Assembly (NCBI RefSeq): GCF_000007985.2
Contig: NC_002939.5
Span: 1,290,001-1,322,000, forward strand
Length of the DNA: 32,000 nt
Reading direction: 5' to 3'
Origin: Geobacter sulfurreducens PCA
GTDB lineage: Bacteria; Desulfobacterota; Desulfuromonadia; Geobacterales; Geobacteraceae
In this document: piece after piece, positions 5,585 to 31,450 of the stretch
Position numbering within the stretch: position 1 is the stretch's first letter
Layout of the letters: every line of letters starts with the position of its first letter
The notes under the pieces: generated by a model
What the model saw: only the letters and a program-made list of their open reading frames with translations
The model's database searches: none
Told to the model about the DNA's origin: nothing
Position numbers and translations under genes: made by a program

Positions 5585-6619
5585 CTACACCGCGGCCTGT
5601 CTGCGCGAGGCGAGGAACGTGTTCAGCTCCCGCTCTCCTGAGGAAAAATCCTCCAGGGAAATGACGGCATCCTCCACCCAGTCGCGGGTCTTGTAGTAGA
5701 GCTTGTCATAGTAATGCCGGATCAGGCCCTCCATGAACGGTTCCATTTCCCATCGGTCCAGATGGCCTTTGATCGCTTCGTAGTTGTCGCCGCCGAGTTT
5801 TTTTCTGATCCGCTCCAGGGCGCCGGCCATGCCGTCCCGGTATTCGGGGCGGCCGTACTCTTCCGTGAGGCGGGCCACCCGGGTGGCCACCGACGCCTCG
5901 CACCAAAGCTTCACACTACCCCGCATGACGTCGTAGAGGTTGCCCGGCAGAGTGAGCCTGCCGATGCGCCTGCTTTCTCCCTCCAGCAGGATGGGGCAGC
6001 CGGCAGGCAATCGGCGGAAGGCATCCCAGAGGAGAGTTTCGAACCGCTTCTGGGAGATGTCCTGACGAAGTCCCAGTTCGCCGAAGGCCGATCCCCGGTG
6101 GCGGGCGAGTCCCTCGAGGTCGACCACGGCATGACCGGCCCGTGCCAGCTGCAGGAGGAACGTCGTCTTGCCCACGCCGGTCATGCCATGGAGGACAACC
6201 AGCGGCGCGGGGGGGGTGAAGGGGTCGAATGATGACAGAACCAGGTGGCGGAAGGCCTTGTGGCCTCCCTGGAGCTGGACCGCGTCGAACCCTGCCAGGT
6301 CGAGGATCGACACGACGGTCTTGCTCCTGAGCCCCCCGCGCCAGCAGTAGACGAGAATGGGGCGGCCTGCCGCGGCCCGGGCAATCTCCCCCACCATGGC
6401 AGGAAAGCGGTGAGCGGTCAGGTGCAGCCCCCGGCGGCGCGCCTCCAGGGGGCCGGTCTGCTTGTAGATGGTGCCGATCTCCACCCGTTCCTCGTTGGTG
6501 AGGAGCGGGACATTGATGGCACCGGGGAGGTGATCCTCCTCGTATTCGAGGGGAGTCCGGACATCCACCACCAAGTGGGTGTCGAGCAACGATTCATGGA
6601 ACGGGGTGGTTTTGATCAC
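5585..6619 (-). CDS. selU: tRNA 2-selenouridine(34) synthase
   Basis: Rhodanese domain with CWRGGLRS active-site loop plus P-loop GMTGVGKTT. A GTG at 6619 preceded by AAGGAG (6-nt spacer) gives 345 aa starting VIKTTPF. The track start at 6673 lacks an SD. Confidence 0.9.
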   Translation of the reverse strand: MIKTTPFHESLLDTHLVVDVRTPLEYEEDHLPGAINVPLLTNEERVEIGTIYKQTGPLEARRRGLHLTAHRFPAMVGEIARAAAGRPILVYCWRGGLRSKTVVSILDLAGFDAVQLQGGHKAFRHLVLSSFDPFTPPAPLVVLHGMTGVGKTTFLLQLARAGHAVVDLEGLARHRGSAFGELGLRQDISQKRFETLLWDAFRRLPAGCPILLEGESRRIGRLTLPGNLYDVMRGSVKLWCEASVATRVARLTEEYGRPEYRDGMAGALERIRKKLGGDNYEAIKGHLDRWEMEPFMEGLIRHYYDKLYYKTRDWVEDAVISLEDFSSGERELNTFLASRRQAAV

Positions 6620-6894
6620 ATCATTCTCCTTGCAAACCAGAGCATTATACGGGGGGAGCAGGGCCAAATGCAAGGATGGTGCGCCACCGCGTGCGGGATG
6701 GTCGGAGGTGCAATCGCTCCATTCTGCTTGTGAAAGGGCGCCGCGAGTCGTTCTATCAAGTGGAGCTGATGGTTTGAGCAGGGCAAAATGCTGTTGACAA
6801 ATGGGCGCGGAACGTTAATCATCCCCAGTGATTGCGCGGCAGGAGGCCCGGTTCGCACAGGGAGGCGGCGGCACTGATCCGGGAGGTGTTCAAG

Positions 6895-7269: not shown

Positions 7270-7381
7270 GTATCGTTGCCGCCGGGGCAATCGTTCCTTG
7301 ATTTTACCCACCGGTCATGCTAATAACATGTTGTTTTATTTATAATAAATATGTTTGAATGCCACTAAACAGGGAGGTGCT

Positions 7382-8668
7382 ATGACAGCTCAGTACTCCG
7401 CCGATTTCGAGAAGGCCCTGCAGGTCGGCCGTCCCCCCAACATCCGGGCTCTTTTCCCCAACTCCAAGGCCCTCATCGTGAGCGGCAAGGTTGTGGACCG
7501 GGCCATGCTTGCAAAGGGGAAAGCCATTGCCATGGCCGCCAACGGCCGCAACTACTTCGTCATTCGCGGAGCACTGATGGCCGCCCAGCGGGCCAACTGC
7601 CCGCTCATCATCGAAATCGCCAAGTCGGAGGGGGGGCAGAAGGCCTACTGTGCCGTTAATTACTGGAACATGGCCCGCATCGTCGACGCCCTCTGCAACG
7701 AGCTGGGGATCACTGTGCCGGTGGCTATCCATGCCGACCACTACGGCATCAAGAACGACAAGGATCTGAACGCCGCCAAGGTGGAGATCCCGACCATGTT
7801 CGAGGCGGGGATCACCTCCATCGCCATCGACGCCTCTCACCTGCCAGACGACCAGAACCTGCTGGCCAACCTGGCCATCAATCCGTTCATCCCGTCCTGG
7901 GCCGGCCTTGAGACCGAGGTGGGTGAAATCAAGGGGAACACAGGCCTTTCCACCGTGGATGAGGCGAAATTCCTTATCCAGGGGCTCAATGCCCACGGCA
8001 TCTTCCCCGACTGGATCGCCTTGAACAACGGCACCACCCACGGTCTGGAGGCGTCGGACGCCGGTATCCAGGTCGGGCTCACCGCCGAGATCCATAAGGC
8101 TTTGGAGCCCTACCGGGTCAACGGTGCCCAGCACGGCACCTCGGGCAACAGCTCCGAGCGCCTCCGCGCCATCGCCAATGAAACTGCCACCACCAAGGCC
8201 AACGTGGCCACCGCGCTCCAGATGATCTCCTGGGGGCTTGAGGTGAACGATTACGGCAATGCTCAACTTGATGCCGACGGCAATTTCATCAAGAAGTCCG
8301 ATGCCGGCATGAGCGACGAGCTGTGGGCCGAGATGGTGGCCCATGCCGAAGGCAAAGGTTGGAAGAAGGGGGACTACAAGAACCTGAACCTTCCCTTTGA
8401 GAACAAACTGCTGGCGCAGCCTAGGGAGATCCGCGAGCGGATGGCCAAGGGGGTGGAAGAGTTCGCCTACAAGATGATGACCGAGGTGCTCAATGCCCGG
8501 GACACGGCACCTTACGCCATAGAGGCGATTCTCTCGGCCGGTTCCTACGACGTGGGGGCAAAGGGAAGCCGTATAGATGATCCGGCCCTCTGGACCGAAG
8601 CCCGGATCATCGAGCGGGCGAAATCAATTGTGGGTGACAAGGGCGCTGAAGGAAATTTCGACGATTAG
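7382..8668 (+). CDS. fba: class II fructose-bisphosphate aldolase (long ~430 aa subtype)
   Basis: ATG 7382 with GGGAGG about 4 nt upstream. The blocks VAIHADHYG, IAIDASH and ALNNGTTHG/AQHGTSG are metal/substrate motifs of class II aldolases. A consensus -10 TATAAT lies at 7341-7346. Confidence 0.9.
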   Translation: MTAQYSADFEKALQVGRPPNIRALFPNSKALIVSGKVVDRAMLAKGKAIAMAANGRNYFVIRGALMAAQRANCPLIIEIAKSEGGQKAYCAVNYWNMARIVDALCNELGITVPVAIHADHYGIKNDKDLNAAKVEIPTMFEAGITSIAIDASHLPDDQNLLANLAINPFIPSWAGLETEVGEIKGNTGLSTVDEAKFLIQGLNAHGIFPDWIALNNGTTHGLEASDAGIQVGLTAEIHKALEPYRVNGAQHGTSGNSSERLRAIANETATTKANVATALQMISWGLEVNDYGNAQLDADGNFIKKSDAGMSDELWAEMVAHAEGKGWKKGDYKNLNLPFENKLLAQPREIRERMAKGVEEFAYKMMTEVLNARDTAPYAIEAILSAGSYDVGAKGSRIDDPALWTEARIIERAKSIVGDKGAEGNFDD

Positions 8669-17975: not shown

Positions 17976-18149
17976 CCCCCGGTCGAGGCGCTTGATTCGT
18001 TGCCATTCCGCGATTCGTTGAGAGCGAAAGAAACCGAAACGGCGCCCTGACCGCCGGGCTCCATCATCCAGACGGCCTAGCTTCCTGTGCAAAATGGCAC
18101 GCTTCAATGTTCAACAGAGGCTTTTGTGGAATTTCAGATACTGCGTGAC

Positions 18150-20180
18150 ATGGAAATACTTTTCGGGCTGGCGGTCTTTACGGTGGTGCTCCTGCGCCGG
18201 CTCATGTTCCCCTCGATTATCGGTTTTCTCGCCACCGGCATCCTGGCCGGCCCCTCTGCTCTGGGGCTCATCAAGAATACCCACCAGGTGGAGCAGATGG
18301 CCGAAATCGGGGTGGTGCTCCTGCTTTTTACCATCGGCATCGAATTCTCGCTCAAGGAGCTGATGCGGATCAAGCACCTCGTCTTCTGGGGCGGGGGGAT
18401 GCAGGTAGGGGTAACCATCGCCATCGTGGCGGCCTTGGCGTTCGCCTTCGGCATACCGCCCTCCCAGGCCACCTTCTTCGGCTTCCTGGTGGCCCTCTCC
18501 AGTACCGCCATCCTCATGAAGCTGCTCATGGACAAGGGGGAGATGGACGCCCCCCACGGTAAGGTGGCGCTCGGCATCCTGATTTTTCAGGACCTCTGCG
18601 TGGTCCCCCTCATGCTCTTCACCCCGTTTCTTGCCGGGGCGGGCAACGGTTGGACGGGGATACTCCTGGTATCTCTCAAGGCGGTGGCCGTGGTAGTGGT
18701 GGCCCATTTCGGCTCCCGGTTCCTGGTCCCCTGGATTTTCGAACAGGTAGTCAAGAGCCGCAGCCGCGAACTCTTTATCCTCACCATTATCTTTATCGGC
18801 TTCGGTACGGCCTGGCTCACGGCCCAGGTAGGACTGTCGCTGGCCCTGGGGGCATTCATCGCCGGCCTAGCCATCTCCGAATCGGAGTACAGTCACCAGG
18901 CCCTGGGTGATATCATCCCGTTCCGCGATGCCTTCATGAGCCTGTTCTTCATCTCCGTGGGCATGCTGCTCGATCTGTCCGTCCTGGTTCGGCAGCCGGT
19001 CCTGGTGGCCTCCCTCGTTCTGACTATCCTGGTGGTGAAGTTTCTGGTCACGGGCGGAGCGGCCATGGCCCTCGGCATCCCGGCCCGGGTCGGCATCGTC
19101 ACCGCGCTGGCCCTGGCCCAGATCGGCGAATTCTCCTTCATTCTTTCCCAGACCGGCATGCAGTACGGTCTCCTCTCCAAGGATATGTACCAGGTATTTC
19201 TGGCTGCATCGGTAGCCACCATGGCTCTCACTCCGCTTTGCCTCAAGGTGGGTGCGCCGGTGGCGAGTTATCTGGTGGGGGTTTTGCCGACACCCTTGAC
19301 CCGGGGCCGGGGCGTGCTTCGGGGGAAAGAGAAGAAGCTTTCCCTGACGGATCATGTAATCGTGGTCGGCTACGGCGTCAACGGCAGGAATCTTTCCCGG
19401 GTGCTGAAGGTCCAGAAAATCCCCCATGTGGTGATCGAAACCAATCCCTTCACGGTCTCCACGGAGAAGAGCAAGGGAACCCGCATCATGTTCGGCGACG
19501 CCACCCGGCCCGAGGTTCTCACCCACTCAGCCGTGGAGCGCGCGCGCAGCATCGTCATCGCCATTTCCGATGCGGCCGCCAGCCGCCGGGTCGTGGCCCT
19601 GGCGCGGCAGATGAGCCCCACCATCCACATCATCGTCCGGACCCGCTACATTGCCGAGATGGAGCCCCTGTACAAGCTGGGCGCCAACGAGGTTGTGCCT
19701 GAGGAGTTCGAGACGTCCATCGAGATATTCTCCCGGGTTCTGCGCAACTTCCTCATCCCCCAGGACCAGATCGATCAGTGCGTGGGAGAAATTCGGCGGG
19801 GTTCCTACGACATGTTCCGCACCATGAGTCGCCGTCACAGCCACGCCGTAGGGATCGCCGGGTACCTATCCGGCGCGGAGATCGCTACCTTCCGCGTGAA
19901 GAAGGGAGCCCCCATCGAGGGTGAAAGCCTGCGGCAAGGGACCCTGCGAACCAGGTCGGGCGCCACGCTCCTGGTGATCAAGCGGGGGGACGAGGTGACG
20001 CCCAATCCCGACCCGGTCTGGGTCCTGCAGGAGGGGGACATCGTATTGCTGCTTGGCACGCCGGAGCAACTCGCCGCAGCCTCGCGGCTTTTCGAGGCAC
20101 CGGCGGTGGAGGGCGGGCCCGTTGCGCCGCCCCCGGCGGATAGCAGCCGACACGACACCAGCAACAGGAGAGACCAGTGA
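18150..20180 (+). CDS. monovalent cation:proton antiporter-2 (CPA2, Kef-type) with TrkA-N and TrkA-C domains
   Basis: The membrane domain starts MEILFGLAVFTVVLLRRLMFPSIIGFLATGILAGP.... It contains a Rossmann motif VIVVGYGVNGRNL (TrkA-N) and a C-terminal RCK_C (LLVIKRGDEVTPNPDPVWVLQEGDIVLLLG). The start is ambiguous between ATG 18150 and GTG 18087, and neither has a good SD. Confidence 0.85.
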   Translation: MEILFGLAVFTVVLLRRLMFPSIIGFLATGILAGPSALGLIKNTHQVEQMAEIGVVLLLFTIGIEFSLKELMRIKHLVFWGGGMQVGVTIAIVAALAFAFGIPPSQATFFGFLVALSSTAILMKLLMDKGEMDAPHGKVALGILIFQDLCVVPLMLFTPFLAGAGNGWTGILLVSLKAVAVVVVAHFGSRFLVPWIFEQVVKSRSRELFILTIIFIGFGTAWLTAQVGLSLALGAFIAGLAISESEYSHQALGDIIPFRDAFMSLFFISVGMLLDLSVLVRQPVLVASLVLTILVVKFLVTGGAAMALGIPARVGIVTALALAQIGEFSFILSQTGMQYGLLSKDMYQVFLAASVATMALTPLCLKVGAPVASYLVGVLPTPLTRGRGVLRGKEKKLSLTDHVIVVGYGVNGRNLSRVLKVQKIPHVVIETNPFTVSTEKSKGTRIMFGDATRPEVLTHSAVERARSIVIAISDAAASRRVVALARQMSPTIHIIVRTRYIAEMEPLYKLGANEVVPEEFETSIEIFSRVLRNFLIPQDQIDQCVGEIRRGSYDMFRTMSRRHSHAVGIAGYLSGAEIATFRVKKGAPIEGESLRQGTLRTRSGATLLVIKRGDEVTPNPDPVWVLQEGDIVLLLGTPEQLAAASRLFEAPAVEGGPVAPPPADSSRHDTSNRRDQ

Positions 20181-20650
20181 AAAAAGTACTCGTGACCTAT
20201 TACTCGCGTAGCGGCAATACCGAAAAAATGGCCCGTATGATCGCCGACAGCCTCGTGACCAGAGATCTGGCCGTTGAGTTGATAAAGGTCGAGGAGGTCG
20301 ATATCGACACGCTTCCCTCCTATGACGGCTTCATCGTCGGCTCTCCCAACTACTTCGGCACCATGGCCTGGCCAGTGAAAAAGTTCATCGACGAGAGCGT
20401 CAAGTACTTCAGGAAGCTCGACGGCAGGGCCGCTGCCGCGTTCACTTCGGAAGGGATGATTGGCGGCGGGGGCGACACGGTGGTCCTTGATATCCTCAAG
20501 GCATTCCTGATTCACGGCTGTATCGTCCAGGGGCTCACCTCGGCCGGGCATTACGGCCCCGTGGCCGTGGGGGCCCCCGACGAACGGATCGCCAATGAGG
20601 TGAACGTTCTCGCAACAACCTTCGCCGAGCTGGTGAACCGCGTCCGATGA
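20177..20650 (+). CDS. flavodoxin-like fold protein (flavodoxin/WrbA-type)
   Basis: GTG 20177 overlaps the antiporter stop (GTGA), with GGAGAG 4-5 nt upstream. MKKVLVTYYSRSGNTEKMA is the FMN phosphate-binding loop. 157 aa. Confidence 0.85.
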   Translation: MKKVLVTYYSRSGNTEKMARMIADSLVTRDLAVELIKVEEVDIDTLPSYDGFIVGSPNYFGTMAWPVKKFIDESVKYFRKLDGRAAAAFTSEGMIGGGGDTVVLDILKAFLIHGCIVQGLTSAGHYGPVAVGAPDERIANEVNVLATTFAELVNRVR

Positions 20651-21243
20651 GCAACGGAACTGCACAGGGGGGCGAGACGGTCCCGGAGACCGCCCGTCAC
20701 TGCCGTGAGCTCGTCGACCGCTGGCTTGCCGACGGAAGCTTCGACCGGCGCCTCCCGGAGGTCGCGCGGCTGCGGGGCGTACCCCAGCCCGAGGTCTATC
20801 ACGCCGAGGGCGACGCTTTCGTCCATACGATGCTTGCTCTGTCGGCCGTAGACGGCGGGGCTGATTCGCGGGTCTTCTGGGGGGTGCTCCTGCACGATAT
20901 CGGCAAGGCGGAGACCACCGAGTTCATCAGCGGACGCTGGCGCGCCTGGGGTCATGCCGAGCGCGGCGCAGCCATGGTGCCGGCAGTCATGGAGCGGTTG
21001 GGACTCCCGGAACTGGCCGCGGACGTGGTCTGGCTGGTCAGGCACCATACCTTCCATTTCTCCTGGAACCTGACGCCGGACGTGCGACTCACCCGTAACC
21101 AGCGCCGTTTCCTGGAGCATCCTCTGTTGCCGTTGTTGCTGGAGGTCTGCCGCGCCGACGCGGACGGCTCCCATGGGGGTAGCGACAAGGGCGATAAGAT
21201 CGAGCAGATAGCGGATCTGCTCAACGACGAAAGGAGAGCATGA
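20647..21243 (+). CDS. HD domain phosphohydrolase (resembles the HD domain of CCA-adding enzymes)
   Basis: Its ATG overlaps the previous stop (ATGA). GVPQPEVYHAEGDAFVHTMLAL, then LLHDIGK and VRHHTFH. 198 aa. Confidence 0.85.
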   Translation: MSNGTAQGGETVPETARHCRELVDRWLADGSFDRRLPEVARLRGVPQPEVYHAEGDAFVHTMLALSAVDGGADSRVFWGVLLHDIGKAETTEFISGRWRAWGHAERGAAMVPAVMERLGLPELAADVVWLVRHHTFHFSWNLTPDVRLTRNQRRFLEHPLLPLLLEVCRADADGSHGGSDKGDKIEQIADLLNDERRA

Positions 21244-21244
21244 C

Positions 21245-21532
21245 ATGACGATCACTGATGCGGCAAAAGCGGTTCTCGCGCCGATTGTGGGGGAGCACCC
21301 CGGAAAGATTCTGCGTGTTGTCTTTGAGGGGTTTGGTTGAGGCGGTCCCCGCTTGGGACTGGTTCTGGATGAACCGGCTGATAACGACGCGCGGATGGTT
21401 CTGAATGGCATCGAGGTGGCGGTGACCAGCAATTTCCGCTCCCTCCTGGACGACCAGATACTTGACTACATTACCAATGAGCAGGGAGAGGGACTCGTTT
21501 TCAGACGGGAATCGGGCGATGTCTGCTGCTGA
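21245..21532 (+). CDS. IscA/HesB-family selenoprotein (TGA at 21338-21340 read as selenocysteine)
   Basis: The ATG at 21245 lies 1 nt after the HD gene stop. Translation with TGA=U is MTITDAAKAVLAPIVGEHPGKILRVVFEGFGUGGPRLGLVLDEPADNDARMVLNGIEVAVTSNFRSLLDDQILDYITNEQGEGLVFRRESGDVCC (95 aa). It is collinear with IscA/HesB over its whole length, with U at the position of the first cluster-ligand Cys (IscA ..TSGCSG..). Hairpins follow the TGA, and selU is in the same window. Confidence 0.8.
21343..21377 (+). promoter_or_regulatory. candidate bacterial SECIS element(s)
   Basis: There are two hairpins directly 3' of the UGA. The first is CGGUCCC-CGCUU-GGGACUG (21343-21361). The second is CUGGUUC-UGGAU-GAACCGG (21359-21377), whose G-containing apical loop sits about 26-30 nt after the UGA, the usual bSECIS spacing. 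They share 3 nt (21359-21361). Folded by eye only. Confidence 0.5.
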
Positions 21533-21547
21533 GGGTGGAACCGGATC

Positions 21548-22192
21548 ATGATTACTGCGCTGGACGTCTTCGGGACGTTCGTTTTCGCCCTGTCAGGGGC
21601 ATTCAGGGCGATCAAATACGAGTTGGACCTTCTTGGAGTTCTTGTGCTGGCGGTTGCCACCGGGGTGGGGGGCGGCATGATCCGCGATCTGCTCCTGGGG
21701 ACCACGCCGCCCATGGTCTTTCGCAATGAATCCTATCTGGCCATCTGCGTGGCCGGCGGGCTTCTGGTCTTCCTGGCCGCTGGTCGGCTTGCCCCGATCT
21801 GGGACTGGGTCATGGTGGCCGATGCCGTTGGCCTGGGCGTCTTTGCCGCCATCGGTGCCCAGAAGGGGGCCGCGGGTGGGCTCGGTGGCTTCGGCATCGT
21901 CATGATGGCGGCCATGACCGCCACCGGCGGCGGCGTGGTGCGGGACATCCTGGTGATGGAGATTCCCGCCGTGCTCCGCACCGACTTCTATGCCAGCGCC
22001 GCCATCCTCGGTGGCGCATGCTTCGTGGCGGCCCGGGCCGCCGGCGCGCCAGAGCAGGTCCAGCTCTTCACCTGTCTGGCGGTCACCCTGGTTCTGCGTC
22101 TGCTCGCCATGCGCTTCGGTCTTTCCCTCCCGCGGATAAAGGGGCTCGCCCCTGCGCCGGGGGACGGCGGCACAGGGGACGGCAAAGAGTAA
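21548..22192 (+). CDS. trimeric intracellular cation channel (TRIC)/UPF0126 family membrane protein
   Basis: 214 aa with two internal repeats, each carrying the glycine-rich kink motif (GVGGGMIRD and TGGGVVRD). Confidence 0.9.
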   Translation: MITALDVFGTFVFALSGAFRAIKYELDLLGVLVLAVATGVGGGMIRDLLLGTTPPMVFRNESYLAICVAGGLLVFLAAGRLAPIWDWVMVADAVGLGVFAAIGAQKGAAGGLGGFGIVMMAAMTATGGGVVRDILVMEIPAVLRTDFYASAAILGGACFVAARAAGAPEQVQLFTCLAVTLVLRLLAMRFGLSLPRIKGLAPAPGDGGTGDGKE

Positions 22193-22943: not shown

Positions 22944-23062
22944 GGGTGCCTCCTTTTCCGTTCCGAGTGTGCCTCCCCATCCACGTGAAGTATGATTGGT
23001 TTTGCCGATTATGCAAGACGGGGCGCACCCTCCGTCCCACTTCCCTTCAGCGAGGTAGAGCT

Positions 23063-23974
23063 ATGGCTTCTCTCACCCTTCGACACTTGGCAGGCAATAC
23101 CTGGCTCATCCCCGCACCGGCCGCCATCGGCGTGTATGTGCGCAACGGACGGGCCGTGCTCATCGACAGCGGCAATGACGAGGAGGCGGGACGTCAGATC
23201 CTGAAGCTCCTGAACGGCCAGGGGTGGACCCTTGACCTCATCGTCAACACCCACTCCAATGCCGACCATATCGGCGGCAATGCCTTTCTCCAGAAAAAGA
23301 CCGGCTGCCGCGTCGCCGCCACGGTCCCGGAGGCGGCCTTCATCGCCAACCCCATCCTCGAGCCGTCTTTTCTTTACGGCGGCTATCCCGTGAAGGCGCT
23401 ACGCAACAAGTTCCTCATGGCCAAGCCGTCCACGGTCACCGACATCATCGAGGCCATCGGCCCTATCCTTGACACGGGGCTGGAGGCGGTCCCGCTGGCC
23501 GGCCACTTTTTCGGCATGATCGGCATCCGTACCCCGGACGGCGTCCTCTTCGCCGCCGACAGCCTGTTTCCGGAGACAATCCTCGCCAAGTATCCCATAT
23601 TCTACCTCTACGACATCCGGGAGCACCTTGCGTCGCTCCAGCGGCTCCGGGAACTGGAGGCTGCCATCTACGTTCCGAGCCACGGCGCGCCGTCCCCGGA
23701 GATTCTCCCGCTGATAGAAGCCAACGAGCAGCGCGTGCGACAGACCGTTTCCTTTGTGGAGTCCTGCTGCACGGATGCGCCGGCCTCCTTCGAAACCGTG
23801 CTGGAACGCGTCTGCGGGGAGTATGGCATCGTTCTCGACCCGAACCAGTACGTGCTCGTGGGAAACACCATCCGCTCCATCCTCGCCTTCCTGTCCGAAG
23901 AGGGGCGGCTCGCCATGATCTTCGACGGGGGCAGGCTGCTCTGGGGTACCGCCGCCGATCAACGGGAGGCGTGA
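23063..23974 (+). CDS. MBL-fold metallo-hydrolase
   Basis: ATG 23063 with GAGGT 6 nt upstream. Carries an HxxxDH variant motif, NTHSNADHIGGN, and later conserved His/Asp positions. 303 aa. The track N-terminal extension overlaps the divergent gene and was discarded. Confidence 0.85.
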   Translation: MASLTLRHLAGNTWLIPAPAAIGVYVRNGRAVLIDSGNDEEAGRQILKLLNGQGWTLDLIVNTHSNADHIGGNAFLQKKTGCRVAATVPEAAFIANPILEPSFLYGGYPVKALRNKFLMAKPSTVTDIIEAIGPILDTGLEAVPLAGHFFGMIGIRTPDGVLFAADSLFPETILAKYPIFYLYDIREHLASLQRLRELEAAIYVPSHGAPSPEILPLIEANEQRVRQTVSFVESCCTDAPASFETVLERVCGEYGIVLDPNQYVLVGNTIRSILAFLSEEGRLAMIFDGGRLLWGTAADQREA

Positions 23975-24404: not shown

Positions 24405-25382
24405 CTATTTTCGCGCAGGCGTCTGCTCGGTCTTGACCGGCTTCCAGGTGGGATCGGGATCGAACAGCTCCATAGACTCGGCCCTGCGCCGCGTGTCCTT
24501 GCCGAGATTCTTTTCGTACACCTTGCCCGCCTGATTCACGATAAAGGTCATCACCCCCGAGTTGCCGTATTCGGCGGGATAGGCAACCAGAGCAAAACCA
24601 AGAAGCATCTTGTCCTTGATCACGTAGTGGTACGCGCCACCGACGGCATGCTTTCCCTGGCCCTTGAGTATCTTGAAGTAGTAGCCGTGGAAGGGGGAGA
24701 GGTTACGCTCCGGCGCATACCCTTCCTTTGCCGCCTGGGCCACCAATGGGCCGAGGGGGCTCTGCAACTCACCCTCCTTCGCTTCCCAGTAGAGACCGTC
24801 ACGGTTTCCTTCCGTGCTGAAAAGCCGCTGGGCGAACTCGACCTTGCCTCCGCCGCGGCAATCCTTGCTCGCATACTCCAGTTGGGCATCCACGTACGCG
24901 TCGAGCACATCGATGACGTGCAACTCGTTCCGGCCGATCCTCCGTTTCAGAATTTCGCTCTTTCCTTTCCTCACGTCGAAGATCCAGCGGGAGCCTTTCT
25001 TGACAATGGGAATTGGCATGGTCCACTGATCGGGGCCAACGTGCACGACGGCCGTGGTTGCCGATTTCCGCTCAAGCCGATTCGCCTGTTCAAACGAATT
25101 GAGGAAACGTTCCCGATCCGTCTTGTCCGCCACCTCGTCGCCCGAAGAGACCAACTCCTTACTGCCGGGGCCCAGGATCTGCAGCAACTCCTTCTCGTCA
25201 TGCGCTGTTACGGCAGCAACAAGGGCCTTGACCGCCTCGTCGGGGGAGGCAAAGGTTTTTTGCCGAACGGTTGCAGCCGTCGAGGGTGAGGCTATCAGCG
25301 ACAGGAACATGGCAACGGCTGCGATAACGGCCGCCAGGGCCAGCCGGCCGCGTGCGCCTTGGTGGTATGCGAACTGTTTCAT
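24405..25382 (-). CDS. DUF2950 domain protein (secreted, function unknown)
   Basis: 325 aa with an N-terminal signal/anchor (ALAAVIAAVAMFLSLIASPSTAA) and SD GAGGAG upstream. The blocks FASPDEAVKALVAA, WTMPIPIVK, DGLYW and GYYFKIL are characteristic of DUF2950 as I recall it. Confidence 0.85.
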   Translation of the reverse strand: MKQFAYHQGARGRLALAAVIAAVAMFLSLIASPSTAATVRQKTFASPDEAVKALVAAVTAHDEKELLQILGPGSKELVSSGDEVADKTDRERFLNSFEQANRLERKSATTAVVHVGPDQWTMPIPIVKKGSRWIFDVRKGKSEILKRRIGRNELHVIDVLDAYVDAQLEYASKDCRGGGKVEFAQRLFSTEGNRDGLYWEAKEGELQSPLGPLVAQAAKEGYAPERNLSPFHGYYFKILKGQGKHAVGGAYHYVIKDKMLLGFALVAYPAEYGNSGVMTFIVNQAGKVYEKNLGKDTRRRAESMELFDPDPTWKPVKTEQTPARK

Positions 25383-25445
25383 GTGTCTTCTCCTCTGCGC
25401 CCAGTGGTGCTCTCGGGGGAACGAAACGCCCGGCAGTGGCTGGCG

Positions 25446-26762
25446 CTACCTGAATTCCTTCTTGCCCCCACCGCGGCCACCGCCACCACCGCCTCCCGGC
25501 ATTCTCATTTCGCCGCCCCCTCTGCCGCCGCCGGATGGTGCCCGCTGGCCGCTCCAGCCCCCTCTGCCGCCCCCCTGGGGCGCCGGTGTGACGCTCCGGA
25601 TGCTGGACTCGCCGCGTTTGATGGCCCGGCGCTCAAACGATCCTTCGCCCACGCCCTGGAAGGGGGTATCGCGTCTTGCCGGTTTCTGCACCTGCTCGCG
25701 CTGGGGTGGTTGCGCCTGTGGCGCGACCGTGCTGTCCCGCCGCGGGACCTGGCCGGGGCCCTTCCCCGTCTGCGGCGCGCCCGGCACGTCACGTCGCTCA
25801 CGAGCCGGCTGCTGCTGCCTGCTCTCCGGCCTGCCCGGGAATTTGCCGGGGTAGCCGCGCGTTTCCGGCCTGACCGGTGCCATCCGGGGCGGCCGCTTGC
25901 CGTAGAAATCACTCGTTTTCCTGTCCCGATAGGCCACGCCCCGCCGGTGAACGGGGTTGTGCTGCCAGACGTGGCTGCCCACATCCCGTCGATAGTAGTG
26001 CTGATGAAACCTTCTCGTCTTGCCGATGTTCACATAGACGCGGTGAACGGGCCAGTCGAACCAGGCCCAGGCAAAGAGGTCGAAACCAATAAAAACCCGC
26101 GGACCGAAACCGATATAGCCGCCCGTGATGGCGAATCCCGGCGGATAGTACCAGTAGTAGGGCGGGTAGGCGGGATACCACCAGGGGCCGTACACGTACA
26201 ACGGATTGTAGACCGGCACATAGACGACGGTCGGGTCGGCCGGTTCGATCCGGATGATTTCCTTCTCGTGGATGACCTTCTGCTCGGCGGTTGTTTTGAG
26301 ATTTCCCTGTTCGTCAGCCTTTCGCCTCAGTTCCTGAATGGTGGCCGTAACATCGTCCTCCTGACTCAGGAAGGCATCGCCCAGCTTCCTCGTCTGGTCG
26401 AGCTTCTCGCTCATGGCGAAAAGGATATCCGGGAAATGGCAGAGCGACTTGACGCTGGGGTCCCAAGACTTTTCCTGGAGGGCTTTATCCAACTCTTCAC
26501 CCTTAAGGCCCATGTTTTGCCGCCGCCATCGCTCCGCATCCACCACTTCAAGCGGATAGGTGGAAGCCATCAGGATCTGGGCCGTCAATGAGTCGGGGTA
26601 GAGGGCAATCGGCGCAAGCATCTGGGTCAATTCCTCTTTGCTGAATGTAGTTGCCTGCTCGGGTGCGCTCTCTTCGTCCTGCGCAAGCAGGCCGGCCGGT
26701 ATCATGAGCATGACGATGATGATGCAGGCCAACCGCAGCGCTCTCGTGATTATCGATTTCAT
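25446..26762 (-). CDS. DUF3300 domain protein with long Pro/Arg/Gly-rich C-terminal tail (secreted, function unknown)
   Basis: ATG 26762 with GAGGAG 5 nt upstream gives a signal peptide MKSIITRALRLACIIIVMLMIPAGLLA, followed by LAPIALYPDSLTAQILMASTYPLEVV (DUF3300 core). The last ~190 aa are low complexity and end ...GGGRGGGEMRMPGGGGGGGRGGGKKEFR. Confidence 0.85.
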   Translation of the reverse strand: MKSIITRALRLACIIIVMLMIPAGLLAQDEESAPEQATTFSKEELTQMLAPIALYPDSLTAQILMASTYPLEVVDAERWRRQNMGLKGEELDKALQEKSWDPSVKSLCHFPDILFAMSEKLDQTRKLGDAFLSQEDDVTATIQELRRKADEQGNLKTTAEQKVIHEKEIIRIEPADPTVVYVPVYNPLYVYGPWWYPAYPPYYWYYPPGFAITGGYIGFGPRVFIGFDLFAWAWFDWPVHRVYVNIGKTRRFHQHYYRRDVGSHVWQHNPVHRRGVAYRDRKTSDFYGKRPPRMAPVRPETRGYPGKFPGRPESRQQQPARERRDVPGAPQTGKGPGQVPRRDSTVAPQAQPPQREQVQKPARRDTPFQGVGEGSFERRAIKRGESSIRSVTPAPQGGGRGGWSGQRAPSGGGRGGGEMRMPGGGGGGGRGGGKKEFR

Positions 26763-27069
26763 ACGATCTCCTCTGATACCTTCCGGTTCGTCACGACCCG
26801 GTCGGAAGGCTGCCAAGCTTCGATTGAATCTCCTAAAGTATAACGGCAATTTCTTACTGCGCATCCCTTGCCCGGCCATTTGGACAGCCGCGTGCGCACG
26901 GGCCTCCAGCGGCGGCATGGGGTGCGGTCCGGCAGCTTATCCGCCGCACGCACGCCGAAATCGGAATAAAGGATCTTGCATATTTCAGTGACGCGGGTAT
27001 GTTCATTGTCATTATCCCGTGGTTGAGCCATTCTCGGCCGCGGGAGACAGCTGTCGACCGGAGGCACGC

Positions 27070-28085: not shown

Positions 28086-29807
28086 ATGAACAACGGCACG
28101 CCTGAGCATACCGGGCAACGGCCCGAGCAGTGGCTCATGGGCGAGGCCCGGCAGGTGCGGGGACCTCTCCTGGTTGCGATAGGTTGTGCCTTTGCGGCCG
28201 GGCTGCTGGTCATCCTCCAGGCCCGGCTCCTGGCGTCGGCCTGCCATCGGGTGGTTATCGGTGGAGCCGGAGGAGAGTCGGTGCTCCCTCTCGCGACTGC
28301 CGTTGCCGCCGTGGCCCTCGGACGGGGCGTGCTGGCCCTTGTGTCCGAACGGCGCTCCGCCGCGGCTGCGGCGCGCCTCAAGGAACGGGTGCGCAGCGCT
28401 CTCTACCGGCGGCTCCTGGCCCTGGGACCGGCCGGCAGGGCAGGGGAGGAGACCGGCCCTCTGGTGGAAGCGGTGACGGCGGGCGTGGAAGGGCTCGAAC
28501 CCTACGTGGCCCGCTTTCTGCCCCATCTGGCCCTGGCGGCGCTCCTGCCGGCGGCGGTCCTGTTCGTCGTGGTCCCGGCCGAGTGGCGCGCCGGCCTCGT
28601 CCTTCTTTTTTCCGCCCCGTTCATTCCCCTGTTCATGGTCCTCATCGGCCGGGGATCCGAAAGCCTCAACCGGCGCCAGTGGGGCCGGCTTTCCCGGCTG
28701 GCGGGACACCTCCTCGACCTGGTGCAGGGTCTGCCGGACCTGAAGCTGTTCGGAGCGGTCAAGCGCGAGGCCGAGGCCGTGGCGCGGGTTTCTGAGGAGT
28801 ATCGCCAGGCGACCATGGCGGTGCTCCGGATTGCCTTCCTTTCGGCCTTTACCCTGGAGTTTTTCGCCACCGTCGGCACAGCGGTGGTGGCCGTAGTGGT
28901 GGGCTTTCGGCTTCTGTCCGGGAGCCTGGGGCTCGTCGATGGCCTCTTCGTGCTGCTCCTGGCGCCGGAATTCTACCTGCCGCTCCGGACGCTGGGGCTC
29001 TCCTACCATGCCCGGATGCAGGGGGTGGCCGCCGCCGAGCGGCTCACCCCCCTCATGTCCCTTCCCTTGCCCCATGGCGGGATGGACGGGCTGCCCATCC
29101 CGCCGGGAGCGCCGGCCATCCGGTTCGAAGGGGTCAGCTTCCGCTATGGCGGCGAACGGGGCGGGGTCGAGGGGATCGACCTGGAACTGCCGGCCGGCAG
29201 CATCACGGCGCTTGCGGGAAGGAGCGGCGCAGGCAAGACGACGCTGGTTCGGCTTCTGGTGGGGTTGGCCCGGCCGGTGCAGGGGAGGATTACGGTCAAC
29301 GGGATCGACCTGGGCCTCGTACAGCCGGACGCCTGGCGGTCGACCATTGCCTGGGTGCCCCAACGTCCCTTTTTCTTCAGGGCGACCATTCGGGAGAACC
29401 TTCTGCTCGGCCGGCCGGATGCCTCCGATGACGATATCCGTGCCGCCCTTGATGCGGCGACGGCAACGCCTTTCATCCAACGGCTGCCCCAAGGGCTTGA
29501 AACCTTGCTGGGCGATCGAGGAGCGGGGCTGTCCGGGGGCGAGCTGCGGCGGCTGGCCCTGGCGCGGGCGTTTGTGCGCCGGGCGACACTCGTGGTCCTG
29601 GATGAGCCGACCGCCGGTCTCGACCCCGAAAACGAACGCCTGGTGGGCGATGCCCTGGACCGGATCGCCGCGGGAAGGACGGTACTGGTGATTTCCCACC
29701 GCGAGGAGACCATCCGCCGGGCCGGGCGGGTGGCAGTGCTCGCGGGAGGCACCATCGAAGGAATCATGGGGGCCGAAGCGTTCCTGGCACAGGAGGGCCC
29801 GGCATGA
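28086..29807 (+). CDS. cydD: thiol reductant ABC exporter subunit CydD (fused TMD-NBD)
   Basis: 573 aa with six TM helices, then Walker A GRSGAGKTT, signature LSGGELRR and Walker B LVVLDEPT. Paired with cydC by an ATGA overlap. Confidence 0.9.
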   Translation: MNNGTPEHTGQRPEQWLMGEARQVRGPLLVAIGCAFAAGLLVILQARLLASACHRVVIGGAGGESVLPLATAVAAVALGRGVLALVSERRSAAAAARLKERVRSALYRRLLALGPAGRAGEETGPLVEAVTAGVEGLEPYVARFLPHLALAALLPAAVLFVVVPAEWRAGLVLLFSAPFIPLFMVLIGRGSESLNRRQWGRLSRLAGHLLDLVQGLPDLKLFGAVKREAEAVARVSEEYRQATMAVLRIAFLSAFTLEFFATVGTAVVAVVVGFRLLSGSLGLVDGLFVLLLAPEFYLPLRTLGLSYHARMQGVAAAERLTPLMSLPLPHGGMDGLPIPPGAPAIRFEGVSFRYGGERGGVEGIDLELPAGSITALAGRSGAGKTTLVRLLVGLARPVQGRITVNGIDLGLVQPDAWRSTIAWVPQRPFFFRATIRENLLLGRPDASDDDIRAALDAATATPFIQRLPQGLETLLGDRGAGLSGGELRRLALARAFVRRATLVVLDEPTAGLDPENERLVGDALDRIAAGRTVLVISHREETIRRAGRVAVLAGGTIEGIMGAEAFLAQEGPA

Positions 29808-31450
29808 GAGAGCTCTTCCGTATCCTCGCCGTGGCCCGCGGACAGTGGTCATGGATGGCGGCCGGCATGCTCCTCGCCGTGGCCGTTATCGCTGCCAACG
29901 CCCTTCTCATGGCAGTTTCCGGCTGGTTCATCGCCTCCATGGCCGTTGCCGGCACCACGGGCGCCGCCTTCAACTACTTTTTCCCCTCGGCCGCCATCCG
30001 CGGGCTCGCCATCCTGCGGACCGTGGGGCGCTACCTGGAGCGCCTGGTGACCCACGAGGCCGGCTTCCGGGTCCTTGCCCTCCTGCGCGTCTGGCTCTTC
30101 CGGCGGCTTGAGCCCCTGGCGCCGGCAACGCTGGAGCGGTTGGGCGGGGGAGACGTGGCCGGGAGGCTCCGGTCGGACGTGGATGCCCTGGAAAGTCTCT
30201 ATCTGCGGATCATGCTCCCTCTCGCCGCCGGTGGGGGGGCTATCCTGGCTGCAACGGCTTTTGTTGCCCTCTGGAGCACCTCTGCCGCCGGAGTTCTTTT
30301 TCTCGCACTGCTGGCCGCCGGGGTGGGCCTGCCCCTGGTGGCGCGCCGATTGGCGGAGCAGCCCGGCCGCCGTTCCGCCGAACTGGCCGGCAGCCTGCGG
30401 GAAGCCGTGACCGAAGGGCTTCAGGGCGGCGAGGAGCTGATCCTGCTGGGGGCGGTCGAGCGTCAGGCGTCGCTGGTTGATGATCTTTCGCGACGGCTGG
30501 TGGCGGAGCAGGAGCGTCTGGCGGCAGGAGGAGGCGTCACCCTGGCGGGTGGGATTGTCTGCGGCGGGGTCGGGGTGGCCGCAGTCCTTGCGATTGCATC
30601 CTTTCAGGTTGCCGCCGGGGAACTCGGCGGACCGCTGCTGGTGATGCTGCTACTCTTTGCCGCGGCTGCCTTCGAGGCTGCCGGCGGAATGCCCGCTGCG
30701 CTCCAGCACCTGCCAGCCGCCCGGGAGTCGGCGCGAAGAATTCTCGAACTGGCCGATTCACCGCCGCCGGTGCCGGAACCCGCTACGCCGGTGCCTCTCC
30801 CGGCCACCACGGAGATCGTCTTCCGCAACGTCTCGTTCTCCCATGACCCCTCTCTGCCGGTACTCCGGGACGTTAACCTGACCGTGCCCGCCGGGGGACG
30901 GGTAGCGCTCATGGGCCCCAGCGGCTCGGGCAAGAGTACCGTGGCCGACATCCTCCTTCGCTTCCGCGATTACGGGGGAAGCGTCACCCTGGGGGGCATC
31001 GAACTCCGTGACCTGGGAGGGGAGGCTATTCGCGGGCTGATCGCTGTGGTTCCCCAACAGCCCCACCTCTTCAACGGCACCATCAGAGAGAATATCCTTC
31101 TGGGCAACCCGGCGGCCGAAGAGGAGCAGGTGCGTCGGGCTGTCCGGGATGCTGCCCTTGCCGAGTGGGTCGACGGATTGCCCCTGGGTCTGGATACCCC
31201 GGTGGGTGAGGGGGGGAGTGCCGTGTCGGGAGGAGAGGCCCGCCGGATCGCCCTGGCCCGGGCCCTGTTGAAGGATGCACCGGTTTTTCTGCTGGACGAG
31301 CCCACCGAGGGGCTCGACTTCGCCACCGAACAACGGGTGATTGCAGCGCTGGCGAATCGGACCGAGGGGAAGACCGTGCTGATCATTTCCCACCGTCCAG
31401 CTTGTGGTGACATGGCTGAACAGGTGCACTATTTTGTTAAAGTTCCCTGA
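29804..31450 (+). CDS. cydC: thiol reductant ABC exporter subunit CydC (fused TMD-NBD)
   Basis: 548 aa with Walker A GPSGSGKST, signature VSGGEARR and Walker B VFLLDEPT. The start overlaps the cydD stop. Confidence 0.9.
   Translation: MRELFRILAVARGQWSWMAAGMLLAVAVIAANALLMAVSGWFIASMAVAGTTGAAFNYFFPSAAIRGLAILRTVGRYLERLVTHEAGFRVLALLRVWLFRRLEPLAPATLERLGGGDVAGRLRSDVDALESLYLRIMLPLAAGGGAILAATAFVALWSTSAAGVLFLALLAAGVGLPLVARRLAEQPGRRSAELAGSLREAVTEGLQGGEELILLGAVERQASLVDDLSRRLVAEQERLAAGGGVTLAGGIVCGGVGVAAVLAIASFQVAAGELGGPLLVMLLLFAAAAFEAAGGMPAALQHLPAARESARRILELADSPPPVPEPATPVPLPATTEIVFRNVSFSHDPSLPVLRDVNLTVPAGGRVALMGPSGSGKSTVADILLRFRDYGGSVTLGGIELRDLGGEAIRGLIAVVPQQPHLFNGTIRENILLGNPAAEEEQVRRAVRDAALAEWVDGLPLGLDTPVGEGGSAVSGGEARRIALARALLKDAPVFLLDEPTEGLDFATEQRVIAALANRTEGKTVLIISHRPACGDMAEQVHYFVKVP

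What the first reader, a model, noticed from the sequence alone, without database searches (positions are those of the whole stretch)
21245..21532. Hidden IscA/HesB-family selenoprotein gene: in-frame UGA plus SECIS-like hairpins
The 288-nt stretch between the HD gene and the TRIC gene has no ORF of 60 aa or more. Reading TGA 21338-21340 as Sec gives a 95-aa protein collinear with IscA/HesB A-type Fe-S carriers. The U in FEGFG-U-GGPRLGL aligns with the first conserved ligand Cys (E. coli IscA TSG-C-SG). The region after the TGA (VLDEP....NGI.V.V......L....LDY) continues the family alignment, which a true stop would not explain. Two hairpins follow the UGA; the second has its apical UGGAU loop about 26-30 nt downstream. 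The window also encodes SelU, so the organism uses selenium. HesB-like selenoproteins have been reported in bacterial selenoproteome surveys, so the family is not new. Standard ORF callers would nonetheless miss or split this locus. The C-terminus ends in DVCC rather than the usual CGCG, leaving a Sec plus vicinal-Cys ligand set that has not been characterised.
Basis: partly seen in the sequence, partly recalled or inferred. Interest (0 to 1): 0.7.

Follow-up and report, generated by a model that had tools for sequence, protein, structure and literature searches.

The report
Known Geobacter HesB-like selenoprotein gene
The gap between two genes holds a real 95-codon gene whose internal UGA is read as selenocysteine, but this exact Geobacter sulfurreducens protein was published in selenoprotein surveys about twenty years ago, so it is correct but not new.

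Summary
Window 21245-21532 (+) is one reading frame of 95 codons with a single in-frame TGA at 21338-21340.

- Both halves of the frame evolve as coding sequence. The internal TGA is invariant in every relative fetched: the window's own species, a sister Geobacter haplotype group and seven divergent metagenome homologues. The terminal stop, in contrast, switches between TGA and TAA.
- The TGA column is Cys in E. coli IscA and in a Cys-form homologue.
- A 7-bp hairpin with a UGGAU loop (21359-21377) starts 25 nt after the UGA. It meets the published bacterial SECIS constraints and shows three compensatory base-pair changes. Its synonymous sites are frozen.
- SelU is in the window at 5588-6673 (-).

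The gene is not hidden in the literature. The read-through translation is identical over all 95 residues to the "Geobacter_sulfurreducens" HesB-like selenoprotein in the supplement of Zhang et al. 2006 (PMC1794560). Chaudhuri & Yeates 2005 recovered it independently. The CC terminus is shared with other family members.

What remains true is an annotation problem. Gene callers split this subfamily into a 31-aa and a 59-aa piece almost everywhere. The biochemical role as an Fe-S carrier is inferred, not shown.

Verdict: already known, low interest.

The parts
21232..21236 (+). Shine-Dalgarno-like AGGAG, 8 nt upstream of the ATG. It lies inside the 3' end of the HD gene, whose stop codon is at 21241-21243.
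   Evidence: Read directly from the sequence. No terminator-like site lies between the neighbouring genes.
21245..21532 (+). HesB-like (IscA/HesB superfamily) selenoprotein gene: 95 codons plus a TGA stop at 21530-21532.
   Evidence: Translation. Identical to the published G. sulfurreducens HesB-like selenoprotein. Pfam and NCBIfam hits span the UGA. Purifying selection acts on both sides of the UGA.
21338..21340 (+). Sec codon UGA (residue U32, motif GFG-U-GGP).
   Evidence: Invariant TGA in all 8 other distinct sequences compared, while the terminal stop varies between TGA and TAA. It aligns with the first ligand Cys of IscA and with Cys in P0016.
21359..21377 (+). Bacterial SECIS hairpin: 7-bp stem CUGGUUC/GAACCGG and a 5-nt loop UGGAU (21366-21370). 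It begins 25 nt after the UGA and has -8.7 kcal/mol.
   Evidence: Fold. Meets the four published bSECIS constraints. 92% of cells are paired and 3 of 7 pairs carry compensatory changes. Synonymous sites are frozen.
21340..21354 (+). First, UGA-proximal hairpin (AGGCGG-UCC-CCGCUU). Its relevance is doubtful.
   Evidence: Predicted in the 43-nt fold. No compensatory change, and three of its six pairs are broken in 2-3 of 9 sequences each.
21524..21529 (+). C-terminal vicinal Cys94-Cys95 codons (TGC TGC). They are the presumed partner ligands of Sec32.
   Evidence: Sequence. A C-terminal Cys column is invariant in the family alignment.
18087..21243 (+). Three upstream genes, each overlapping the next by 4 nt: a CPA2 antiporter with TrkA domains (18087-20180), a flavodoxin (20177-20650) and an HD-domain protein (20647-21243).
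   Evidence: ORF coordinates. Pfam calls on the syntenic loci. HDIG hit.
21548..22192 (+). Downstream gene of the TRIC/UPF0126 type (Pfam Gly_transporter), 15 nt after the selenoprotein's stop codon.
5588..6673 (-). tRNA 2-selenouridine synthase SelU/MnmH. It is a second selenium-utilisation trait, is not part of the locus and is not needed for Sec decoding.
   Evidence: NF008750, 405 bits against a cutoff of 241.

Best explanation
Window 21245-21532 is the HesB-like selenoprotein gene of Geobacter sulfurreducens.

Proposed mechanism: the mRNA is translated from the ATG at 21245. At UGA 21338-21340, SelB carrying Sec-tRNA(Sec) is recruited by the hairpin 21359-21377, which lies in the coding sequence 25 nt downstream with a G-containing UGGAU loop. 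Selenocysteine is inserted instead of termination, giving a 95-residue protein.

The protein has the A-type (IscA/SufA/ErpA) Fe-S carrier fold. Sec32 takes the place of the first cluster-ligand Cys, and Cys94-Cys95 sit at the C-terminus. It most likely binds and hands on iron or an Fe-S cluster, probably as a dimer.

Shown here: the gene, its frame, the conserved UGA, the Sec/Cys column, the SECIS hairpin with covariation, and identity to the published sequence. Inferred: actual Sec insertion in this organism, SelB binding, and the Fe-S carrier function.
For: 1. The read-through translation is identical to the 'Geobacter_sulfurreducens' HesB-like entry in supplementary file 4 of PMC1794560. 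That paper lists HesB-like among the 8 selenoproteins of G. sulfurreducens. Chaudhuri & Yeates 2005 recovered a HesB-homologous UGA read-through in AE017180 by a method that does not use SECIS.

2. Public contigs carrying the 59-aa fragment named 'Geobacter sulfurreducens' are identical in DNA to the window over the gene.

3. Against a sister haplotype group, there are 7 synonymous and 1 non-synonymous variable codons upstream of the TGA, and 14 synonymous and 3 non-synonymous downstream. The TGA is invariant, and the terminal stop is TGA in one group and TAA in the other.

4. An exhaustive HMMER search with only the 63 residues after the UGA found 19 clusters. Eight contigs were then fetched: seven by looking up six of the post-UGA fragment clusters, and L017 by looking up the full-length cluster P0011 (110 aa, W printed at the Sec position). 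The six fragment haplotypes analysed (L009, L011, L013-L016) all carry the conserved N-terminal part (M.ITD.AK...NPGK.LRVVFEGFG), the TGA and GGPRLGLALDEP in one frame. L017 shows the same architecture with a more divergent N-terminus (...LRIAIEAG).

5. The Sec position aligns with Cys35 of E. coli IscA and the Cys of HI1723, and with Cys in P0016.

6. The hairpin meets the published bSECIS constraints of loop 3-9 nt, stem 4-16 bp, G in the first two loop positions, spacing 16-37 nt and MFE of -7.5 kcal/mol or lower.

7. Three of 7 stem pairs carry compensatory changes, 92% of cells are paired, and slid controls give 29-50% for the two tested helices together against 88.9% in register. Synonymous sites in the hairpin are frozen (Ala GCT 7/7, Leu CTG 9/9, Asp GAT 8/9, Glu GAG 8/9), whereas four-fold sites upstream vary freely.

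8. The best NCBIfam models are NF038090 IscA_HesB_Se and, third, TIGR01911 HesB_rel_seleno. The UxGP motif given for the family is present.

9. The literature supplement holds SelA, SelB and Sec-containing SelD sequences for G. sulfurreducens.

10. One relative (L009) lies immediately upstream of NifU_N and Nitro_FeMo-Co genes.
Against: - No direct evidence of Sec insertion (75Se labelling or mass spectrometry) for this protein was found in the papers searched.
- selA, selB, selC and selD are not in the window. Their presence rests on the literature.
- Scores against the two selenoprotein-specific NCBIfam models are well below their curated cutoffs (36.5 against 85, and 30.1 against 66.35). 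Pfam PF01521 is met only exactly at threshold (26.3).
- The C-terminal motif is CC, not the CxC of canonical A-type carriers.
- The function of the family is called unclear even where Sec insertion was shown by 75Se labelling, in M. maripaludis, and a mutant there was not impaired in nitrogen fixation.
- Rfam has no matching family, so the SECIS call rests on my own implementation of the published constraints.
Confidence: 0.92

Rival explanations
1. The locus is a decaying pseudogene of a Cys-type HesB gene, in which TGC or TGT mutated to TGA. Translation stops after 31 residues.
For: Gene callers end the ORF at the TGA and call separate 31-aa and 59-aa products.
Against: - The TGA is invariant in all 9 distinct sequences compared, including relatives only 34-47% identical in protein.
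- Purifying selection continues downstream of it: 14 synonymous and 3 non-synonymous variable codons.
- There are no frameshifts or further stops.
- The terminal stop, not the internal one, varies.
- An RNA hairpin with compensatory changes follows the TGA.
Confidence: 0.02
2. There are two independent small genes: a 31-aa peptide ending at the TGA, and a 59-aa protein that starts at TTG 21353.
For: This is how public gene calls describe it. The 59-aa product has NCBI entries as a 'hypothetical protein'.
Against: - The two pieces together, and only together, match one domain (PF01521 residues 1-86). The halves alone are not significant.
- The 12-nt 'spacer' GGC GGT CCC CGC encodes the conserved GGPR of the UxGP motif and is conserved in frame in all relatives.
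- No Shine-Dalgarno sequence precedes the TTG.
- Full-length database entries read the TGA as W (P0011, P0019) or have Cys there (P0016).
Confidence: 0.02
3. It is a selenoprotein, but not an Fe-S cluster carrier. Sec32 with Cys94/95 would form a selenenylsulfide redox centre, or a site for handling a metal, selenium or sulfur, for example persulfide or selenide relay or metal sensing. This role would be linked to the neighbouring flavodoxin and HD genes.
For: - Reviews state that most uncharacterised prokaryotic selenoproteins probably have redox functions and that the function of HesB-like proteins is unclear.
- The best solved-structure match is DsrR, an IscA-fold protein; where the window protein has Sec32, DsrR does not show the gCsG Cys motif that IscA and HI1723 show at that position.
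- The C-terminus is CC rather than CxC.
- The gene sits in an apparent operon with a flavodoxin, an HD protein and two membrane transporters, not with isc, suf or nif genes.
- A M. maripaludis hesB-like mutant showed no nitrogen-fixation defect.
Against: - The Sec position is exactly the first cluster-ligand Cys of IscA, and a C-terminal Cys column is invariant. That is the ligand pattern of A-type carriers.
- One relative is adjacent to NifU_N and Nitro_FeMo-Co genes.
- No experiment distinguishes the two readings.
Confidence: 0.25

Closest known systems
HesB-like selenoprotein of Geobacter sulfurreducens (Zhang, Romero, Salinas & Gladyshev 2006, Genome Biol 7:R94, supplementary file 4; the family is said to stem from Kryukov & Gladyshev 2004, EMBO Rep 5:538, which I could not open)
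   Same: Identical over all 95 residues, with U at position 32. Same organism according to database names and identical DNA in public contigs.
   Different: Nothing. This is the same gene.
HesB-like selenoproteins of other anaerobes (Desulfuromonas acetoxidans, Desulfitobacterium hafniense, Alkaliphilus, Clostridium perfringens, Desulfovibrio vulgaris and others; NCBIfam TIGR01911 and NF038090)
   Same: G-U-[GS]-G-P motif, LDEP block, one or more C-terminal Cys, length of about 92-107 aa, and 23-39% identity. TIGR01911 is the model cited for the family.
   Different: The Geobacter protein scores lowest against both models and falls below both cutoffs. However, four of the seven published members tested also fall below both. 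It ends in a bare CC, whereas some members have Gly/Cys/Ser-rich tails.
HesB-like selenoprotein of Methanococcus maripaludis (MMJJ_08070)
   Same: Same named family. It is the one member for which the papers I read report Sec incorporation, by 75Se labelling and mutagenesis.
   Different: It is archaeal, so its SECIS lies in the untranslated region and works by a different mechanism. Its function is also unknown. I did not compare the sequences.
A-type Fe-S carriers IscA, SufA and ErpA (Pfam PF01521; PDB 1s98, 1r94, 2apn, 1x0g)
   Same: Collinear over residues 2-88. Sec32 aligns with the first ligand Cys (sgCsG), and the D/E-rich block and the LDY/LDF motif align as well.
   Different: It has Sec instead of Cys, a CC terminus instead of CxC, and is about 12 residues shorter. 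Similarity is weak (E 0.003-0.01 for single sequences), and equivalog scores are far below their cutoffs.
E. coli fdhF/fdnG-type bacterial SECIS and the bSECISearch consensus model (Zhang & Gladyshev 2005, as summarised in PMC13188914)
   Same: A coding-region hairpin right after the UGA, with a small apical loop carrying G at position 2 followed by G. Spacing is 25 nt, within the 16-37 nt range, and energy is below -7.5 kcal/mol.
   Different: The primary sequence is unrelated to fdhF. No bulged U is evident. SelB binding is untested.

Membership tests
Bacterial selenoprotein gene (UGA recoded to Sec) | An in-frame UGA with protein-coding conservation on both sides. | tested here: met
   Variable codons are 7 synonymous / 1 non-synonymous upstream and 14 / 3 downstream, and 22 of 26 variable sites fall at codon position 3. 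Eight metagenome contigs fetched by look-up of seven representative clusters (seven distinct sequences) keep the same frame across the TGA.
Bacterial selenoprotein gene (UGA recoded to Sec) | The UGA column is occupied by Cys in homologues (Sec/Cys pair). | tested here: met
   It aligns with Cys35 of E. coli IscA and with the Cys of HI1723. P0016 has Cys at this position, GCCSP.
Bacterial selenoprotein gene (UGA recoded to Sec) | A bSECIS hairpin: loop of 3-9 nt, stem of 4-16 bp, G in the first two loop positions, 16-37 nt after the UGA, and MFE of -7.5 kcal/mol or lower. | tested here: met
   Loop UGGAU of 5 nt, stem of 7 bp, G at loop position 2, spacing of 25 nt, and -8.7 kcal/mol (-11.1 in the sister Geobacter). 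The criteria are quoted from PMC13188914. Of the TGA triplets in the window, 7.7% pass by chance.
Bacterial selenoprotein gene (UGA recoded to Sec) | The hairpin is conserved as a structure (covariation). | tested here: met
   Three of 7 pairs carry changes on both sides, and 92% of cells are paired. For the two helices together, slid controls give 29-50% against 88.9% in register. Synonymous sites are frozen. The sample is small, at 9 sequences.
Bacterial selenoprotein gene (UGA recoded to Sec) | The genome encodes SelA, SelB, SelD and tRNA-Sec. | not testable with these tools
   None of them lies in the 32-kb window. The supplement of PMC1794560 prints SelA, SelB and Sec-containing SelD for G. 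sulfurreducens.
Bacterial selenoprotein gene (UGA recoded to Sec) | Selenium is demonstrably incorporated into the protein. | not testable with these tools
   This needs 75Se labelling or mass spectrometry. In the papers read it is reported only for the M. maripaludis family member.
HesB-like selenoprotein family (TIGR01911 / NF038090) | The UxGP motif at the Sec site. | tested here: met
   U32-G33-G34-P35. The motif is as listed in Table 1 of PMC13188914.
HesB-like selenoprotein family (TIGR01911 / NF038090) | A score at or above the model's curated cutoff. | tested here: not met
   NF038090 gives 36.5 bits against a cutoff of 85, and TIGR01911 gives 30.1 against 66.35 (with U written as C). 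Four of the seven published members tested also fail both cutoffs, so the models are narrower than the published family.
HesB-like selenoprotein family (TIGR01911 / NF038090) | Inclusion in the published family set. | tested here: met
   The identical sequence is listed under '#HesB-like' in supplementary file 4 of PMC1794560.
A-type Fe-S carrier superfamily (Pfam PF01521 Fe-S_biosyn) | The Pfam gathering threshold is reached. | tested here: met
   26.3 bits against a cutoff of 26.3, covering residues 1-86 and model positions 3-97 of 110. This is exactly at threshold and uses U written as C.
A-type Fe-S carrier superfamily (Pfam PF01521 Fe-S_biosyn) | Three ligand cysteines, C...CxC. | tested here: inconclusive
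   The first ligand is Sec32. The C-terminus has an adjacent CC (94-95) rather than CxC. The HMM alignments end before the terminus.
A-type Fe-S carrier superfamily (Pfam PF01521 Fe-S_biosyn) | Binds and transfers iron or Fe-S clusters. | not testable with these tools
   This is a biochemical property. The only contextual hint is the NifU_N and Nitro_FeMo-Co genes next to one relative.

The most novel reading that the evidence does not exclude
The Geobacter-type proteins may form a distinct, widespread subgroup of HesB-like selenoproteins.

- They are about 95 aa long, with ...LRVVFEGFG-U-GGPRLGLALDEP... and a bare C or CC terminus.
- The Geobacter member scores below both curated selenoprotein HMM cutoffs; its metagenome relatives were not scored against those models.
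- They are systematically split by gene callers. Of 19 representative clusters at 50% identity, 16 (56-77 aa) begin at or just after the UGA and so are post-UGA fragments; 15 of them are 56-60 aa. Two more clusters carry W at the Sec position.
- Their chemistry, a Sec plus vicinal-Cys site, may differ from that of classical A-type Fe-S carriers.

This would be a refinement in annotation and subfamily definition, with an open biochemical question. It would not be a new kind of system.
Probability: 0.3. Interest if true: 0.3.

Novelty: already known. Interest (0 to 1): 0.12.

Why it matters
For discovery it matters little. The gene, its Sec codon and its family have been in the literature since the mid-2000s.

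It has some practical value as a clean, well-controlled example of how selenoprotein genes are lost in automated annotation. In the public protein collections searched, this gene and nearly all of its close relatives appear only as a 31-aa stub plus a 56-60-aa 'hypothetical protein'. In two clusters Trp is printed at the Sec position.

The biochemical question remains open: what does a selenocysteine do at the first ligand position of an A-type Fe-S carrier? No member of the family has a known function.

Tried and rejected
- **Rfam.** At gathering thresholds over the whole window, and at E up to 10 over 21200-21600, there were no hits. No Rfam family matched this region, so this is uninformative rather than negative.
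- **The search for related loci on genome contigs** with the U-to-C protein. 600 pattern matches were found, but none was confirmed by tblastn. The source genome may be masked there, or the in-frame stop may break the confirmation. I did not use the second scan.
- **Megablast against plasmids.** No match. The region is chromosomal.
I used the exact 63 residues after the UGA instead, which made the recovery of the upstream half in the hits an independent test.
I therefore could not check whether RefSeq now holds a correctly annotated full-length entry.
- **Kryukov & Gladyshev 2004** (PMC1299047) is not held in the library. Credit for the first description rests on citations in later papers and on my own recollection.
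- **Hairpin 1** (21340-21354) was considered as part of the SECIS and set aside. It shows no compensatory changes and has several broken pairs.
- **Pseudogene and two-small-ORF readings** were considered and rejected (see the rival explanations).

Full report
**Observation.** Window 21245-21532 (+) is a single reading frame: MTITDAAKAVLAPIVGEHPGKILRVVFEGFG*GGPRLGLVLDEPADNDARMVLNGIEVAVTSNFRSLLDDQILDYITNEQGEGLVFRRESGDVCC*. It has one internal TGA at 21338-21340 and a terminal TGA at 21530-21532. An AGGAG lies 8 nt before the ATG, and the ATG follows the stop codon of the HD gene by one base. On the + strand, conventional ORFs here are only 31, 48 and 59 aa. The statement 'no ORF of 60 aa or more' holds for that strand only. 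A 293-aa ORF (20551-21432) runs antisense to the HD gene and to the start of this gene, which I take for a chance ORF of G+C-rich DNA; it was not itself tested.

**Family.** With U written as C, the 95-aa product matches Pfam PF01521 (Fe-S_biosyn) over residues 1-86, across the TGA, at 26.3 bits, which is exactly the gathering score. Neither half is significant alone. In NCBIfam the best model is NF038090 IscA_HesB_Se (36.5 bits). TIGR01911 HesB_rel_seleno is third (30.1 bits). Both scores are below the curated cutoffs of 85 and 66.35. Against solved structures, the Sec position aligns with the first ligand Cys of E. coli IscA (sgCsG) and of H. influenzae HI1723. The best hit is the IscA-fold protein DsrR.

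**It is already published.**
- A protein search returned only the 59-aa post-UGA fragment. It is named as a hypothetical protein of Geobacter sulfurreducens and of Geobacter sp. 60473.
- Zhang et al. 2006 (PMC1794560) list 'HesB-like' among the eight selenoproteins of G. sulfurreducens.
- Their supplementary file 4 prints the sequence under '#HesB-like / >Geobacter_sulfurreducens'. It is identical to the window's read-through over all 95 residues, with U at position 32.
- The same supplement holds SelA, SelB and a Sec-containing SelD for this organism.
- Chaudhuri & Yeates 2005 (PMC1242214) recovered a HesB-homologous UGA read-through in the G. sulfurreducens genome by read-through similarity alone.
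- A 2026 review lists the HesB-like family with model TIGR01911 and motif UxGP. The window protein has U-G-G-P.
- Contigs that carry the G. sulfurreducens fragment are identical in DNA to the window across the gene.

**Independent tests of the coding frame.**
- Six syntenic contigs of the sister haplotype group (93% identical fragment) align without gaps.
- Variable codons are 7 synonymous and 1 non-synonymous upstream of the TGA, and 14 and 3 downstream. Of 26 variable sites, 22 are at codon position 3.
- The internal TGA never varies, whereas the terminal stop is TGA in the window and TAA in the relatives.
- I then searched 1.84 billion representative proteins with only the 63 residues after the UGA. 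Of 19 hits, 16 (56-77 aa) begin at or just after the L/M of 'GLALDEP', so they are post-UGA fragments, and 15 of these are 56-60 aa. Two full-length entries print W at the Sec position. One (P0016) has Cys there.
- Contigs for seven of these clusters were fetched: six fragment clusters and the full-length P0011 (L017). All show the same architecture of conserved N-terminal part, TGA and GGPRLGLALDEP in one frame. The six fragment haplotypes read M.ITD.AK...NPGK.LRVVFEGFG before the TGA, and L017 has a more divergent version.
- The 'W' of P0011 is a TGA in the DNA.
- The upstream half was not part of the query, so finding it conserved in frame is independent evidence that the UGA is read through.

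**SECIS.**
- Two hairpins follow the UGA.
- The second is at 21359-21377: stem CUGGUUC/GAACCGG, loop UGGAU. It satisfies all four constraints of the published bacterial SECIS model: a 5-nt loop, a 7-bp stem, G at loop position 2 followed by G, 25 nt after the UGA, and -8.7 kcal/mol.
- On its own this is modest evidence, because 7.7% of the 883 TGA triplets in the window pass the same test.
- The comparative evidence is stronger. Across nine distinct sequences 92% of cells pair, and three of the seven pairs carry changes on both sides: C-G/U-A, G-C/A-U, and C-G/U-A with a U-G intermediate. For the two tested helices together, sliding the partner by one to three columns drops pairing from 88.9% to 29-50%.
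- Within Geobacter the change is U21363-A21373 to C-G. It couples a non-synonymous change (V40A) to a synonymous one.
- Synonymous sites in the hairpin are frozen (Ala GCT 7/7, Leu CTG 9/9, Asp GAT 8/9, Glu GAG 8/9). Four-fold sites in the equally conserved upstream peptide use three or four codons.
- The first hairpin (21340-21354) shows no compensatory change and has broken pairs, so I do not count it as part of the element.
- Rfam gave no hit.

- SelU/MnmH is present at 5588-6673 (-), with 405 bits against a cutoff of 241.
- The DVCC ending is not special. A C-terminal Cys column is invariant in the family. Bacillus sp. (GNCC), Alkaliphilus (GGGCCS) and several metagenome relatives also end in CC.
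- The remark that ORF callers miss or split the locus is fully borne out.

**Context.**
- The gene is fourth in a tightly packed same-strand cluster: a CPA2 antiporter with TrkA domains, a flavodoxin, an HD protein, the HesB-like selenoprotein and a TRIC/UPF0126 membrane protein.
- The first three genes overlap by 4 nt, and no terminator-like site lies between the genes.
- The arrangement is conserved in the sister Geobacter but not in the metagenome relatives. One of those sits immediately upstream of Nitro_FeMo-Co and NifU_N genes.

**Mechanism and its status.** The following are shown:
- the gene and its frame;
- the conserved UGA and the Sec/Cys column;
- a covarying SECIS-type hairpin;
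- identity with the published selenoprotein.

The following are inferred from established knowledge of bacterial Sec decoding and of A-type carriers:
- SelB with Sec-tRNA(Sec) binds the hairpin and inserts Sec32;
- Sec32 together with Cys94/95 ligates iron or an Fe-S cluster that is passed to client proteins.

The main live rival concerns function only: a selenenylsulfide redox site or a metal/selenium-handling site instead of cluster carriage. The papers read call the family's function unclear, even for the M. maripaludis member whose Sec content was shown by 75Se labelling.

**Membership.**
- The criteria for a bacterial selenoprotein gene that could be tested are met.
- The protein is in the published HesB-like selenoprotein set. 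It fails the curated cutoffs of both NCBIfam models, as do four of the seven published members I tested. Those models are therefore narrower than the published family.
- Membership of the PF01521 superfamily is met exactly at threshold.

**Verdict.** Interest is low. The only residue of novelty is the annotation gap and the uncharacterised chemistry of the family.

Noticed in passing
P0003-P0020; loci L009, L011, L013-L017: In the 50%-identity representative library, 16 of the 19 clusters related to the post-UGA part (56-77 aa) begin at or just after the UGA, and 15 of them are 56-60 aa. Two full-length entries (P0011, P0019) print Trp at the Sec codon. In P0011 the true TGA stop was also read as Trp, which adds 10 spurious residues. 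This subgroup is thus mis-annotated systematically.
   Followed up: partly
L009 1393-2778: A metagenome relative of the selenoprotein (47% identical to the window's post-UGA part) lies directly upstream of a Nitro_FeMo-Co domain gene and a NifU_N (IscU-like scaffold) gene. This is the only Fe-S-related gene context seen for this subgroup.
   Followed up: no
window 18087-22192 (+): A five-gene same-strand cluster: a CPA2 antiporter with TrkA_N/C domains, a flavodoxin, an HD protein, the HesB-like selenoprotein and a TRIC/UPF0126 protein. The first three genes overlap by 4 nt. The cluster is conserved in the sister Geobacter haplotypes but not in more distant relatives. Why a selenoprotein of the Fe-S carrier fold sits between ion-transport genes is unexplained.
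   Followed up: partly
window 20551-21432 (-): A 293-aa ORF runs antisense to the HD gene and to the first 62 codons of the selenoprotein gene. I take it for a chance antisense ORF of G+C-rich DNA; it was not searched against any family library. It means the stretch is not free of ORFs on both strands.
   Followed up: partly
(PDB 2k4z): The best solved-structure match of the read-through protein is DsrR (E 4e-4), ahead of IscA itself. DsrR is an IscA-fold protein; its aligned stretch does not show the gCsG Cys motif at the Sec position. The match covers residues 15-82, including LLD..LDY.
   Followed up: no
window 7355-8665 (+): A 437-aa ORF has only weak similarity to class II fructose/tagatose-bisphosphate aldolases: 72 bits against cutoffs of 215-343. 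It overlaps an antisense 334-aa ORF. It may be a divergent aldolase-family protein.
   Followed up: no
window 24408-26918 (-): An adjacent pair of genes of unknown function, DUF2950 (410 bits) and DUF3300 (314 bits). It lies near a metallo-beta-lactamase-fold gene (23060-23971) and cydDC (28086-31447).
   Followed up: no
The search for related loci on genome contigs confirmed no relative, not even from Geobacter, although 600 pattern matches were found. Either the source genome is masked in that collection or the in-frame stop defeats the tblastn confirmation. This limitation is worth knowing for selenoprotein queries.
   Followed up: no
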